Below are positions 50,721-53,651 of a stretch of DNA of 64,000 bases, piece after piece. The translations under genes and the position numbers were made by a program. The stretch lies in assembly GCA_038213375.1 (NCBI GenBank), contig JBBQTB010000008.1, positions 75,180 to 139,179 of the forward strand, given 5' to 3'. Each line of letters opens with the position of its first letter. Position 1 is the stretch's first letter. This stretch comes from Bacteroidales bacterium (GTDB lineage Bacteria > Bacteroidota > Bacteroidia > Bacteroidales > JAAUTT01). Below the pieces are notes generated by a model. It saw nothing but the letters and a program-made list of their open reading frames with translations. It was not told where the DNA came from and did not search any database.

Positions 50721-53651
50721 TTAATTACTTAACCATACACGCATCAATGATAGCAATCGATCAACATCAATAGGCTTAGTAATGTAATCATTGGCCCCCG
50801 CATCGATGCATTTTTGTTTATCATCTTTCATGGCTTTAGCTGTGAGGGCAATTACAGGCAGACTCTTGAACCTGCTCTGAGCGCGAATACGTTTCATTGC
50901 TTCGTAACCATCCATTTCCGGCATCATAATATCCATCAATACCAGATCAATGTCAGGATGCATATCCAGCATCTCTAATGCATTTTTTCCATTATCGGCT
51001 TTTATTATTTCCATTCCACGCTCTTTTAATATGGTGGACAATGCAAAAACATTCGGCACATTATCATCTACCAATAATATTTTTTTCGCCTCAAAAATAA
51101 CTTCATTACCGTAAGGATTACTTATCACTGGTTGTTTTGCTTTAGGTAAATTATTAATGGTTCGGTTAAAAAAAACAGCCGTTTCATCCAGCAATCTTTC
51201 TTCCGATTTTATACCTTTTATAATTATGCACTCCGCATATTTCTGAAGTACCTTATTTTCTTCTTTTGTAAGCTCCTTACCGGTGTAAACAATTATAGGC
51301 GGAATGTTATAACCTTTAATATTATCCAGTTTATTAATAAGTTCGAAACCGTTCATATCTGGCAAACCAATATCTAATATAATACAATCGATATGATTTT
51401 TCTGGCATATTGCCAGGGCATCATTGCCTGTTTCTGCTTCAAAACAATTTACATCACTATTTCCAATGAGGATGCGTATGGCTTTTCTGGAATTTTCATT
51501 GTCTTCTATGATAAGCAGGTTTTTTATTTTTCTGCTAACAAAATTTTCAATTCTGTTAAATACATCTTCCAGATCTTTTTTCTCAATCGGTTTCATCAGA
51601 TACTCTACCGCTCCTTCCCGGATTGTTCCAGACGAACTTTCATTTACCGAAATAATATGCACCGGTATATGCTTGATGGATGGATTTGCTTTTAATTCAA
51701 TCAATACCTGATGCCCTTTTATGCCTGGCAGACCCATATCAAGAATGATCGCTAGCGGTATATGTTTTGAAGCAAGCAATAAACCATCTTCTCCGGTGGC
51801 AGCCGACAAACATTTGAATCCTTTTTTGTTGGCTTGCTTTAAAAGTATTGAAGCAAATTTCAGATCGTCTTCAATAATGAGTACAACTTTATCATTCTTG
51901 ATTATGGTATCTCTGTCATCTTTAATAGAGGGATAATTAAGATATTGGGTATTGTTTACAGAGAGAGGTTTATATAAATCATGTTCTTTAATTGTGCTAA
52001 CAGTTTCCTGTTCCACTTGCAATTCAAGAGGTATAATTAGAGAAAATGTTGATCCTTCATTTAATTTACTTTTTAACTTAATTTGAGCTCCTAATAATTT
52101 TGCGAGTTCGCGTGAAATAGAAAGTCCTAAACCCGTACCGCCATATTTTCGCGAGGTTCCTCCATCAGCTTGTTGAAAAGCTTCAAATATGGCCATTTGT
52201 TTGTCTTCCGGTATTCCAATACCTGTATCGGTAACGGAAATATTCACCATACTATCTGTATATCGGTCGATACGTATACTTACACTTCCCTCTTCTGTAA
52301 ACTTTATGGCGTTAGATAAAAGATTTTTCATTATCTGATTCAAACGCTGTGGATCAGTGTGGATAAATCCGGGCAATTCTTTATCCAATTTGCAAGTTAG
52401 GGTCAATCCTTTTTGTTCAGCATGATGTTTAAAATCGCGAATGAGCTCGTATGTAAAATTGCTTAGTGATATGCTTTCAATATTTATTGACATTTTCCCT
52501 GCTTCAATCTTTGAAAGGTCAAGAACTTCATTAATTAATACAAGCAGGTCATGACCACTTTTATAAATTATTTCTGCGCTTTCTACCTGGATGCTGTCAA
52601 GGTTTTTCTTTCTGTTTTCAGATAAATCTTTTGACAGGATAAGCAAACTATTAAGTGGGGTTCTTAATTCATGCGACATGTTTGCAAGAAATTCCGACTT
52701 ATACTTGCTGCTTATTTCCAGTTGTTTTGTTTTCTGTTCAATGTCGTTTTTTGCAGCTTCAACTTCCTGGTTTTGAAATGCAAGTTCCTTGTTAGCGAGG
52801 CTTAACTCCGCTGCTCGTTTTTCCTTCTCTTCGTTTTGAAATGCAAGTTCCTTGTTAGCAAGGCTTAACTCCGCTGCCCGTTTTTCCTTCTCTTCGTTTT
52901 GAAAAGCAAGTTCTTTGTTAGCAAGGCTTAACTCCGCTGCCCGTTTTTCCTTCTCTGCATTTTGAAAAGCAAGTTCTTTGTTAGCAATACTTAATTCCGC
53001 TGCCCGTTTTTCCTTCTCATCGTTTTGAAAGACCAGTTCTTTATTAGCAATGCTTAACTCCGCTGCCCGTTTTTCCTTCTCATCATTTTGAAAAACCAGC
53101 TCTTTATTGGCAATGATTAACTCCGCTGCCCGTTTTTCCTTCTCATCGTTTTGAAAGACCAGTTCTTTGTTAGCAATGATTAATTCCGCTGCCCGTTTTT
53201 CTTTCTCTTCGTTCTGAAAAACAAGTTCTATATTAGCAATGCTTAATTCAGCGGCCCGTTTTTCCTTCTCTTCGTCTTGAAATGCCAGTTCTTTGTTAGC
53301 AATGATTAATTCGCCTGCCCGTTTTTCCTTCTCTTCGTCTTGAAAGACCAGTTCTTTGTTAGCAATGATTAATTCTCCTGCCCGTTTTTCTTTCTCTTCG
53401 TCTTGAAAAGCAAGTTCTACATTAGCAATGATTAATTCTCCTGCCCGTTTGCCTTTCTCTTTGTCCTGAAAAGCAAGTTCAATGTTAGCAATGCCTAATT
53501 CTGCTGCTCGTTTTCCTTTCTCTTCTTTTTGAAAAGCAAGTTCCTGACGAGCAATGATTAATTCCGCTGCCAGTTTTATATTCTCTTCTTTTTGAAAAGC
53601 AAGTTCTTTGCGGGTAATAAATAACTCATCCAATTTTTTTTTGTCAGGCAT
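50721..53651 (-). CDS. hybrid kinase with no TM or sensor domain: 13.5 x 21-aa tandem repeats - HisKA - HATPase_c - 3 REC
   Basis: Residues 16-288 are ELAFQ[KDN][EDA]EKEKRA[AG]EL[IS][IL]AN[KI] x13. These are followed by H-box [15 protein letters not shown] / GGTGLGL, and three REC domains ([33 protein letters not shown]). Confidence 0.85.
   Translation of the reverse strand: [976 protein letters not shown]
52788..53606 (-). repeat. in-frame 63-bp tandem repeat array (13 full units plus a partial 14th)
   Basis: Directly visible in DNA, for example near-identical units at about 52800-52990. The protein units number 13. The kinase-proximal copies are identical in triplets or pairs, and the N-terminal copies are more diverged. 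Confidence 0.9.

What the first reader, a model, noticed from the sequence alone, without database searches (positions are those of the whole stretch)
52788..53606. N-terminus of a hybrid kinase made only of 13.5 tandem 21-aa (63-bp) repeats
Seen:
- The 976-aa kinase starts [15 protein letters not shown] and then runs [21 protein letters not shown] 13 times straight into the HisKA dimerisation helix.
- There is no TM helix, PAS, GAF or other input domain.
- The unit is exactly three heptads. It has an invariant hydrophobic block (AAEL-I/S-I/L-A), two recurrent Asn (QN and AN), and an invariant acidic/basic stretch (EEKEKR).
- Kinase-proximal units are identical in runs (units 11-13, 9-10, 4-5). 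Distal units are more diverged, the signature of recent local expansion by slippage or unequal recombination.
- The same repeat closes the CHASE3-GAF sensor protein and opens the neighbouring paralog.

Inference: the array is a length-tunable helical rod. It may serve as (a) a homotypic docking surface letting the sensor protein talk to both sensor-less kinases in trans, and/or (b) a multi-site substrate for the adjacent CheR/CheB. I believe similar [19 protein letters not shown] segments occur in other Bacteroidota PAS/HK proteins, but I know of no assigned function and cannot verify this here.
Basis: partly seen in the sequence, partly recalled or inferred. Interest (0 to 1): 0.75.

Follow-up and report, generated by a model that had tools for sequence, protein, structure and literature searches.

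The report
Tandemly amplified signaling-helix stalk on kinase
The kinase's N-terminus really is 13 tandem 21-residue repeats, but these are amplified copies of the ordinary "signaling helix" that precedes histidine-kinase cores, a large undescribed Bacteroidota repeat family whose copy number changes without shifting the helix phase, and nothing links it to the neighbouring CheR/CheB.

Summary
Window 52770-53610 is a 63-bp x 13.3 array with no indels, encoding aa 16-288 of a 976-aa hybrid kinase (K2) that has no sensor domain.

1. The "CHASE3-GAF sensor protein" and the "neighbouring paralog" are one gene (K1), cut by a single in-frame TAG at 56171-56173. All 91 related reading frames examined are uninterrupted.
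2. The unit is an amplified signaling-helix (S-helix) core: [12 protein letters not shown] resembles [12 protein letters not shown]. In 87 homologs its Arg lies 20 residues before the phospho-His, the canonical spacing. K2 has 48, which is 20+28.
3. Indels are multiples of 7 residues in 1241 of 1245 spacings. K1 orthologs carry 0-11 units with the phase conserved.
4. The family is large (1900 clusters at 50% identity) and has no Pfam, NCBIfam, PDB or literature record. Sensor-less "array + kinase" proteins are common in it.
5. CheR/CheB track the K1-type kinase and its conserved EELQ coiled coil, which K2 lacks. They do not track the repeat.
6. K2 looks like a lineage-specific chimera of an array-only-kinase N-terminus and a duplicated K1 transmitter.

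The array's amino-acid sequence is under strong purifying selection (21 synonymous vs 1 nonsynonymous difference). What it does in sensor-less kinases is still open.

The parts
50721..53651 (-). K2: 976-aa sensor-less hybrid histidine kinase (cap, 13.3-unit array, HisKA, HATPase_c, three REC domains)
   Evidence: ORF; Pfam domains; 77% identical to the K1 transmitter
53607..53651 (-). 15-aa N-terminal cap [15 protein letters not shown], which contains an A9 run
   Evidence: The cap and the first unit subtypes are shared with array-only kinases such as P0115
52788..53606 (-). 13 full 63-bp / 21-aa units (aa 16-288): the amplified S-helix core
52770..52787 (-). Partial 14th unit (ELAFQN) that merges into the helix leading to HisKA
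52497..52700 (-). HisKA (DHp) domain of K2, with the phospho-His at aa 327, 48 residues (20+28) after the Arg of the last unit
   Evidence: and direct counting on the K2 sequence
52023..52358 (-). HATPase_c catalytic domain of K2
50745..51890 (-). Three receiver (REC) domains of K2. The outer bounds are approximate; only the third domain has exact Pfam coordinates.
53663..57481 (-). K1: one 1272-codon reading frame (CHASE3, TM, GAF, 7-unit array, EELQ coiled coil, HisKA, HATPase_c, three REC domains) interrupted by one TAG
   Evidence: orthologs are intact
56171..56173 (-). In-frame TAG inside unit 3 of the K1 array, at the position where the unit consensus has GAG (Glu)
   Evidence: TAG is an ordinary stop codon in this window, ending 7 of 32 long ORFs
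55880..56320 (-). K1 array of 7 units with a 126-bp (two-unit) super-period
55718..55864 (-). 49-aa (7-heptad) EELQ coiled-coil module. It is conserved in K1-type orthologs and is exactly what K2 lacks.
57486..58064 (-). CheB methylesterase domain only, with no REC domain
   Evidence: synteny
58205..59029 (-). CheR methyltransferase
   Evidence: synteny
48233..50701 (-). Third kinase of the cluster: REC, PAS, HisKA, HATPase_c, REC and a C-terminal region that looks like Hpt by eye (no Pfam hit). It is the gene that directly follows K1 in relatives without K2.

Best explanation
The array is a tandem amplification of the three-heptad core of the signaling helix (S-helix), the coiled-coil segment that normally sits just N-terminal to the dimerisation helix of a histidine kinase. 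In the kinase homodimer it most likely forms a parallel two-stranded helical stalk, about 40 nm long for 13 units, continuous with the first helix of the dimerisation (DHp) domain. Each unit is exactly 21 residues, so unequal recombination or slippage in 63-bp or 126-bp steps changes the length without changing the helical phase at the phospho-His. Copy number therefore drifts, while the residue sequence stays under strong purifying selection.

K2 is a lineage-specific chimera. Its cap and ordered units come from the widespread family of 'array-only' kinases. Its transmitter (HisKA, HATPase_c, three REC domains) is a duplicate of the upstream K1 gene that lost exactly the 49-residue EELQ coiled coil. 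K2 has no sensor domain. Its control therefore probably comes from its three receiver domains and phosphorelay partners, and possibly from the stalk itself.

Shown: the repeat anatomy, the phase rule, the resemblance to the S-helix, the family size, the synteny and the selection.
Inferred: the parallel dimeric coiled coil, the recombination mechanism, the chimeric origin and the mode of regulation.
For: - Unit equals S-helix core. The Arg of the last unit lies 20 residues before the phospho-His in 87 homologs, the same as the ERT-Arg to His distance in canonical S-helices. 128 of 184 distances are 6 mod 7, including K2 at 48.
- The best of the 21 cyclic shifts of the unit against the S-helix consensus [24 protein letters not shown] is the shift that this spacing predicts: BLOSUM score 23, 8 of 24 identities, against a median of -8.
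- Phase rule. 1241 of 1245 unit-to-unit spacings in 120 homologs are multiples of 7.
- K1 orthologs carry 0, 3, 3, 4, 5, 7, 7 and 11 units, with the distance from the end of GAF to the EELQ module always 3 mod 7. The EEL-to-His distance is always 5 mod 7.
- K2 lacks exactly 49 residues, which is 7 heptads.
- Helix. AlphaFold2 predicts helix from residue 4 to 383.
- Selection. There are 21 synonymous and 1 nonsynonymous codon differences in 168 orthologous array codons, against 29 and 30 in 380 codons of the sensor region.
- Copy-number change. There is a one-unit indel between the window and L001 in K2, and 7 versus 3 units in K1.
- Chimera. The N-terminal cap and the order of unit subtypes are shared with P0115, P0118, P0063, P0077 and P0114. 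The transmitter is 77% identical to K1. K2 is present only in the window and L001, and absent from L003-L007 and from 80 metagenome loci.
- Generality. 1900 clusters at 50% identity. The arrays sit before HisKA, GGDEF, HD-GYP and SpoIIE domains and between PAS domains.
Against: - The hydrophobic pattern is not a textbook a/d zipper. In the S-helix register the a positions are L/K/L and the d positions Q/R/A. Conserved F and I fall on the opposite face (position c), and the hydrophobicity spectrum peaks at 7.0 and 5.25 residues rather than 3.5.
- The AlphaFold2 run was a monomer without an alignment (mean pLDDT 68). It folded the helix back on itself and did not resolve the DHp hairpin.
- About 30% of last-unit-to-His distances are not 6 mod 7. 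For example, 21 proteins with a separate canonical S-helix after the array have a distance of 52.
- The ERT signature is only partly kept: the unit has KRA.
- The strong purifying selection argues for more than a passive spacer.
- No experiment on any member of this repeat family was found.
Confidence: 0.65

Rival explanations
1. The array is itself the input module of sensor-less kinases. On this view it is a metastable poly-S-helix coiled coil whose stability or register responds to a physical variable (temperature, ionic strength, crowding), or it presents a second hydrophobic stripe (F4, I18) that binds a regulatory partner such as a receiver domain. This is compatible with the structural part of the best explanation, but it assigns the array a sensory role.
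For: - Hundreds of clusters consist of 'array + HisKA + HATPase_c' with nothing else.
- P0121 is an array-kinase-REC3 protein with no sensor gene, CheR or CheB nearby.
- The array is under much tighter amino-acid constraint than the CHASE3-GAF sensor region.
- The core is half polar (K, Q, R, N at core-flanking positions), and conserved hydrophobic residues lie on the non-core face.
- In B. cereus RsbK the receiver domain contacts the S-helix (PMC4574943).
Against: - There are no experimental data.
- Copy number varies freely (0-11 in one orthologous group), which is odd for a tuned sensor.
- The same unit also occurs as a simple linker between PAS domains and before several kinds of output domain.
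Confidence: 0.2
2. One reading: the repeats are homotypic docking surfaces. A free CHASE3-GAF sensor protein ending in repeats would pair in trans with the repeat N-termini of two sensor-less kinases.
For: - If the TAG is real, the 436-aa product ends with 2.4 units.
- The downstream fragment and K2 both begin with units of nearly the same sequence.
- Near-identical units in several proteins of one cell could in principle form mixed coiled coils.
Against: - The split comes from a single TAG at a consensus GAG codon in an otherwise continuous 1272-codon frame.
- All K1-type orthologs examined are fused.
- TAG is a normal stop codon here.
- The TTG 'start' of the downstream fragment is only the first mechanical start codon.
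- Array-bearing kinases usually stand alone, away from any such sensor.
Confidence: 0.07
3. One reading: the array is a multi-site methyl-accepting substrate of the adjacent CheR and CheB, like the methylation helices of chemoreceptors.
For: - Each unit carries Glu-Glu pairs.
- There is a precedent: the CheR-type enzyme RsbM methylates the S-helix of the CHASE3-HAMP-GAF hybrid kinase RsbK (PMC4574943).
- CheR and CheB lie directly upstream of K1.
Against: - CheR and CheB accompany K1-type kinases regardless of units, and 75 of 91 carry none.
- What is always present next to CheR/CheB is the EELQ coiled coil, which K2 lacks.
- The four array-bearing genes inspected elsewhere have no CheR/CheB neighbours.
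- No CheR/CheB domains occur among 64 representatives.
- The chemoreceptor methylation consensus is absent from K1 and K2. The only relaxed match is ASQAEELQTQ at the boundary between the array and the EELQ module.
Confidence: 0.06
4. The copy number, and possibly the TAG, are assembly or sequencing artefacts of a short-read metagenome assembly.
For: - The closest relative's contig (L001) ends inside its K2 array, so assemblers do break there.
- The window's K1 has 7 units against 3 in L001.
- Neither K2 nor the truncated sensor is found as an exact sequence in the public collection.
Against: - Every unit has its own DNA signature, with at least 3 differences from any other.
- Unit order matches an independent assembly one-to-one over 8 units.
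- Arrays of 10-15 units, and some much longer, recur in thousands of independent records, including isolate genomes.
Confidence: 0.12

Closest known systems
Signaling helix (S-helix) of sensor kinases and cyclases (Anantharaman, Balaji & Aravind 2006, PMC1592074)
   Same: - It is a helical heptad segment placed directly before the dimerisation/phospho-His helix, or between PAS domains, or before GGDEF and other outputs.
- It has a conserved Arg at a normally hydrophobic 'd' position, followed by A-x-L and A-N-x-E-L.
- The Arg-to-His spacing is the same (20 residues).

   Different: - A canonical S-helix is a single segment of about 5 heptads with an ERT signature.
- Here a 3-heptad core with KRA is iterated 2 to about 36 times, and copy number varies between orthologs.
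- The Asn 10 residues upstream of ERT has no equivalent in the unit.
RsbK-RsbM of Bacillus cereus (CHASE3-HAMP-GAF-S-helix-kinase-REC, methylated on the S-helix by a CheR-type enzyme; PMC4574943) and the BmsA CHASE3/GAF kinase + CheR + CheB + hybrid kinase cluster of Pseudomonas (cited in PMC8175716)
   Same: K1 with its neighbours has the same gene set: a CHASE3-GAF hybrid kinase with a coiled coil before HisKA, an adjacent CheR (and CheB), and a further REC-containing kinase.
   Different: - This comparison applies to K1, not to the repeat or to K2.
- Pfam finds no HAMP domain in K1, and K1 has three REC domains instead of one.
- Methylation has not been tested. The likely target is the EELQ module rather than the 21-aa units.
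Engineered and natural coiled-coil linkers with heptad periodicity in photoreceptor histidine kinases (review PMC6798134, retrieved but not read; the 7-residue dependence of activity on linker length is from my own knowledge)
   Same: Linker length matters modulo 7. In-phase length changes are tolerated.
   Different: Those are short, unique linkers studied by mutagenesis. Here nature supplies a phase-locked length series through a tandem DNA repeat.
ER/K single alpha-helices (own knowledge)
   Same: The EEKEKRAAE stretch has i to i+4 Glu/Lys/Arg pairs that would stabilise an isolated helix.
   Different: Only 42% of array residues are charged, and each unit has a conserved Leu/Ala/Ile/Phe block. 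It is not a pure ER/K helix.

Membership tests
S-helix (signaling helix) | Helical segment located between an input or other signalling domain and the output domain, directly N-terminal to the DHp domain | tested here: met
   The array runs into HisKA in K2. In homologs it precedes HisKA, GGDEF, HD-GYP and SpoIIE, or lies between PAS domains. AlphaFold2 predicts helix.
S-helix (signaling helix) | Heptad (coiled-coil) periodicity | tested here: met
   Units are 21 aa. 1241 of 1245 spacings are multiples of 7. Ortholog linker lengths are constant modulo 7. Caveat: the hydrophobicity spectrum is not a simple 3.5-residue pattern.
S-helix (signaling helix) | 'ERT' signature at positions c-d-e of the central heptad, with Arg at 'd' | tested here: inconclusive
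   The unit has K-R-A. The Arg is nearly invariant and at the same distance from the His (20) as the ERT Arg. E and T are replaced.
S-helix (signaling helix) | Single copy of about 40 residues (5 heptads) | tested here: not met
   13.3 tandem copies of a 3-heptad unit, and up to about 36 units elsewhere.
RsbK/RsbM-type methylatable hybrid kinase module (applies to K1) | CHASE3 + GAF + coiled coil + HisKA/HATPase_c + REC in one protein, with an adjacent CheR-type methyltransferase | tested here: met
   Pfam on the merged K1 and on CheR/CheB; synteny holds in nearly all related loci with enough upstream sequence.
RsbK/RsbM-type methylatable hybrid kinase module (applies to K1) | HAMP domain between CHASE3 and GAF | tested here: not met
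   No HAMP hit in K1 at E <= 0.01.
RsbK/RsbM-type methylatable hybrid kinase module (applies to K1) | Glutamate methylation on the S-helix by the CheR-type enzyme | not testable with these tools
   This needs biochemistry. Only one relaxed consensus match was found (ASQAEELQTQ, K1 aa 537).
Chemoreceptor-type methylation helix (CheR/CheB substrate) | Consensus [ASTG][ASTG]xx[EQ][EQ]xx[ASTG][ASTG] (form of the consensus from my own knowledge) | tested here: not met
   No match in K1 or K2.
Chemoreceptor-type methylation helix (CheR/CheB substrate) | Genomic association of the repeat with CheR/CheB | tested here: not met
Pfam PF24081 PH_SLA1 (the only Pfam model that scores above its cutoff on the array) | PH-like beta-sandwich fold | tested here: not met
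   41.7 bits on aa 1-291 from short repeated stretches, but the region is predicted all-helical. This is a spurious, repeat-driven hit.

The most novel reading that the evidence does not exclude
The 21-residue 'ANKEL' array is a new kind of stand-alone input module. On this reading it is a metastable poly-S-helix coiled coil that itself senses a physical cue or docks receiver domains. That would explain the more than a thousand Bacteroidota kinases, phosphatases and cyclases that have no other sensor, with copy number acting as an evolvable gain or threshold setting.
Probability: 0.2. Interest if true: 0.75.

Novelty: new variant of a known kind. Interest (0 to 1): 0.5.

Why it matters
How a conformational signal travels along the coiled-coil linker into a histidine-kinase core is still debated. 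The heptad-phase rule comes mostly from engineered linkers. This repeat family offers a natural, phase-locked length series within single orthologous groups: 0 to 11 units in K1-type kinases, and up to about 36 units elsewhere. That series can be tested directly.

The family also defines a large class of proteins that Pfam and NCBIfam do not cover and that Pfam mislabels as PH_SLA1. Many of these kinases have no other input domain.

For this locus, the analysis corrects the gene model (one interrupted sensor kinase, not a sensor plus an orphan). It also redirects the CheR/CheB question to the conserved EELQ coiled coil.

Tried and rejected
- Searching 8 million papers for the motif strings ([18 protein letters not shown] and others) gave no hits. 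A keyword search on tandem repeat, heptad and Bacteroidetes also gave none.
- A PDB sequence search with 10 units gave only a chance hit at E = 0.058.
- NCBIfam gave nothing on the array. Pfam gave only the spurious PH_SLA1 and other weak hits.
- Exact-sequence look-ups of K2 and of the truncated sensor found no record. The source genome and any independent assemblies of it could therefore not be found.
- The listing of cluster members gave no taxonomy for unnamed representatives. The taxonomic range rests on the named hits, all of them Bacteroidota.
- The HmrABCX paper turned out to be unrelated.
- The AlphaFold2 monomer run gave only 'all helix' and a probably artefactual fold-back. No oligomer prediction was possible, so I did not run a fold search on the model.
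- I considered TAG recoding and rejected it, because TAG ends 7 of 32 long ORFs in the window.
- I considered that K2's array was simply an expansion of K1's array and rejected it. The cap and the ordered unit subtypes match array-only kinases, while K1 units are a different alternating pair.
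Full report
**1. What is in the window**

Tandem Repeats Finder reports a 63-bp array of 13.3 copies at 52770-53610, with 87% matches, no indels and score 1066. It lies at the 5' end of ORF 50721..53651 on the minus strand.

Read in 21-residue register, the protein is [15 protein letters not shown], then 13 full units of the type [21 protein letters not shown] (aa 16-288), then a partial unit that continues into ...[41 protein letters not shown]. I call this kinase K2.

Pfam finds HisKA 318-385, HATPase_c 432-543 and three receiver domains, with nothing upstream. AlphaFold2, run as a monomer without an alignment, predicts helix from residue 4 to 383. Confidence is modest (mean pLDDT 68) and there is one fold-back near residue 162.

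Small corrections: only units 12/13 and 9/10 are identical in protein. No two units are identical in DNA: the minimum is 3 differences in 63 bases, and units 9/10 differ at 6 synonymous sites.

**2. The neighbouring 'sensor protein' and 'paralog' are one interrupted gene**

A second array (55865-56299; 63-bp period, with a better 126-bp period) spans the boundary between the CHASE3-GAF ORF and the next kinase ORF. Translating 53663-57481(-) gives one continuous 1272-codon frame with a single internal stop. That stop is a TAG at 56171-56173, inside unit 3, where every other unit has GAG or GAA.

With that codon read as Glu, the protein (K1) consists of:
- CHASE3 (38-172)
- a transmembrane segment
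- GAF (240-372)
- 7 units
- a coiled coil rich in EELQ
- HisKA, HATPase_c and three REC domains

TAG ends 7 of 32 long ORFs in the window, so it is an ordinary stop codon here. In 11 genome loci and 80 metagenome loci holding relatives, none of the 91 K1-type reading frames examined has such a stop. The simplest reading is a nonsense mutation or a sequencing error, not a designed split.

**3. The repeat is a large, unannotated family**

An exhaustive profile search with three units found 1900 cluster representatives at 50% identity. Of these, 1253 had E <= 1e-10, and some arrays gave 12 three-unit matches.

The top hits are proteins of about 450-556 aa consisting of array + HisKA + HATPase_c and nothing else. 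The named ones come from Flavobacterium, Mucilaginibacter, Arenibacter, Puia, Ferruginibacter and other Bacteroidota.

Among 64 representatives the accompanying Pfam domains were:

| Domain | Representatives |
|---|---|
| HATPase_c | 53 |
| HisKA | 47 |
| PAS | about 31 |
| REC | 16 |
| CHASE3 | 6 |
| GAF | 4 |
| GGDEF | 3 |
| HD-GYP | 3 |
| SpoIIE | 1 |

P0121 has K2's architecture with about 21 units.

No curated model covers the repeat:
- NCBIfam gives nothing.
- Pfam gives only a spurious above-threshold PH_SLA1 hit.
- The PDB has no relative.
- The motif strings occur in none of the searched papers.

**4. What the unit is**

In 87 homologs the nearly invariant Arg of the last unit lies exactly 20 residues before the phospho-accepting His. 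This is the same distance as from the Arg of the ERT signature to the His in kinases with a canonical S-helix, for example ...[28 protein letters not shown].

I built an S-helix consensus from 31 ERT-containing proteins in the data set ([24 protein letters not shown]) and scored all 21 cyclic shifts of the unit against it. The best shift is the one predicted by that spacing:

| Shift | BLOSUM62 score | Identities |
|---|---|---|
| Best (predicted by spacing) | 23 | 8 of 24 (R, A, L, A-N-K-E-L) |
| Next best | 13 | 5 of 24 |
| Median of all shifts | -8 | not computed |

The S-helix was defined as a coiled-coil segment of about 5 heptads before output domains, with Arg at a 'd' position (PMC1592074). 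I conclude that the 21-residue unit is an amplified three-heptad S-helix core. In K2 the last-unit Arg-to-His distance is 48 (20+28), so it is in phase. By direct counting on the K1 sequence the distance is 97 (20+77), the same as in P0121.

**5. The phase rule and copy-number change**

- In 120 homologs, 1202 of 1245 successive unit spacings are 21. The exceptions are 14, 28, 35, 42, 49 and 70 in all but four cases.
- In K1 orthologs the number of units between GAF and the EELQ module is 0, 0, 3, 3, 4, 5, 7, 7 or 11. The distance from the end of GAF to the EELQ module is always 3 mod 7.
- Across 91 K1-type reading frames, 75 have no unit, and the EEL-to-His distance is always 5 mod 7.
- Between the window and its closest relative L001 (92% identical in the K1 sensor region), K1 has 7 versus 3 units. 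The K2 arrays match unit for unit (1-5 differences per unit) except for one extra 63-bp unit in L001.
- In the 168 orthologous array codons there are 21 synonymous and 1 nonsynonymous differences. The CHASE3-GAF region has 29 and 30 in 380 codons.

Length is therefore free in steps of three heptads, but the sequence is tightly constrained.

**6. The origin of K2**

- The K2 transmitter is 77% identical to that of K1.
- Relative to K1, K2 lacks exactly the 49 residues (7 heptads) of the EELQ module.
- K2's cap and the order of its first unit subtypes (FQKEE..KL.AEL, then [18 protein letters not shown], then FQD.., then FQN..) match the N-termini of array-only kinases such as P0115, P0118, P0063, P0077 and P0114, which have a different kinase core.
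- K1's units are instead an alternating pair.
- K2 is present in the window and in L001 only. In L003-L007 the REC-PAS-kinase gene follows K1 directly, and none of the 80 metagenome loci is of K2 type.

The 'diverged distal units' are thus a conserved cap rather than merely old copies. K2 is best read as a recent chimera.

**7. CheR/CheB**

- CheR and CheB lie directly upstream of K1-type kinases in nearly all related loci with enough flank, whether these have 0 or 11 units.
- Array-only kinases (P0024, P0034), an array-SpoIIE protein (P0092) and P0121 have no CheR/CheB nearby.
- The chemoreceptor methylation consensus is absent from K1 and K2. The one relaxed match, ASQAEELQTQ, lies at the start of the EELQ module.
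- The K1 + CheR + CheB + further kinase cluster resembles two known systems. One is RsbK/RsbM of B. cereus, where a CheR-type enzyme methylates the S-helix of a CHASE3-HAMP-GAF hybrid kinase (PMC4574943). The other is the BmsA cluster of Pseudomonas (PMC8175716).
- A similar EELQ/NEEL heptad run follows the CheR domain in a CheB-CheR fusion protein of L004.

If anything here is methylated, the EELQ module is the better candidate, and K2 lacks it.

**8. Mechanism and limits**

I think the array forms a parallel dimeric stalk continuous with the dimerisation helix. It would then be a poly-S-helix whose length changes by recombination between units without altering phase. The oligomeric state is inferred, not shown.

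Three features suggest more than a passive spacer:
- In the S-helix register the core is half polar (a = L/K/L, d = Q/R/A).
- Conserved F and I lie on the opposite face.
- Purifying selection on the array is strong.

The array could be a metastable sensor or a docking stripe for receiver domains. For K2, regulation through its three receiver domains is the default assumption.

**9. Verdict**

The feature is real. It is one member of a widespread but undescribed repeat family, best classed as a tandem-array variant of the S-helix. The trans-docking idea rests on a mis-split gene and is not supported, and the CheR/CheB-substrate idea is not supported by the synteny or motif tests. Interest is moderate: the family gives a natural experiment on coiled-coil signalling and an annotation gap, but this instance is not unique.

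Noticed in passing
window 56171-56173 (- strand): A single in-frame TAG at a consensus GAG codon splits a 1272-codon CHASE3-GAF-array-kinase-REC3 gene into a 436-aa ORF and an 828-aa ORF. All 91 related reading frames examined are uninterrupted.
   Followed up: yes
window 55718-55864 (- strand); L004 16486-20718: A conserved 7-heptad EELQ/NEEL coiled coil lies at a fixed distance, in heptad phase, from the phospho-His in all K1-type kinases next to CheR/CheB. A similar run follows the CheR domain in a 1411-aa CheB-CheR-PAS-kinase fusion protein. It is a candidate methyl-accepting or CheR-docking segment.
   Followed up: partly
window 52779-53651 (- strand) and many homologs: Pfam PF24081 (PH_SLA1) scores 41.7 bits against a cutoff of 27 on the all-helical repeat. 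The hit also appears in the precomputed annotation of many homologs, so it is a repeat-driven false positive spreading through databases.
   Followed up: partly
window 53628-53636 (- strand), codons 4-6 of K2: There is an A9 homopolymer (GAC AAA AAA AAA TTG) just after the start codon. In L001 the run is interrupted (MPNKNK). It could be a slippage site, but nothing was tested.
   Followed up: no
window 55880-56320 (- strand): The K1 array has a two-unit (126-bp) super-period: ELAYQ..ENRAAEL[RK][IV]ANK alternates with ELAFQ..RASELGIANK. The window has 7 units against 3 in the close relative L001, a difference of two double units.
   Followed up: partly
window 57486-58064 (- strand): The CheB is only 192 aa, a methylesterase domain with no receiver domain. 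Its activity cannot be controlled by phosphorylation in the usual way.
   Followed up: no
homologs P0004, P0014, P0024 and others: In one subfamily the array is followed by a separate canonical S-helix with ERT. There the last-unit Arg-to-His distance is 52 (3 mod 7), which implies a phase shift of 4 residues at the ELKNAEDDIRKLN junction.
   Followed up: no
L001 13563-14213: The closest relative's contig ends inside its K2 array, so short-read assemblies break in these arrays and copy numbers in such assemblies should be treated with caution.
   Followed up: partly
window 60554-61705 (+ strand): This ORF follows a small ORF (60180-60548) and has several hydrophobic segments. It ends in a Lys/Glu-rich tail with a duplicated KKLADEQKA motif. 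By eye the pair looks like a BlaI/BlaR1-type regulator and sensor, but I did not check this.
   Followed up: no
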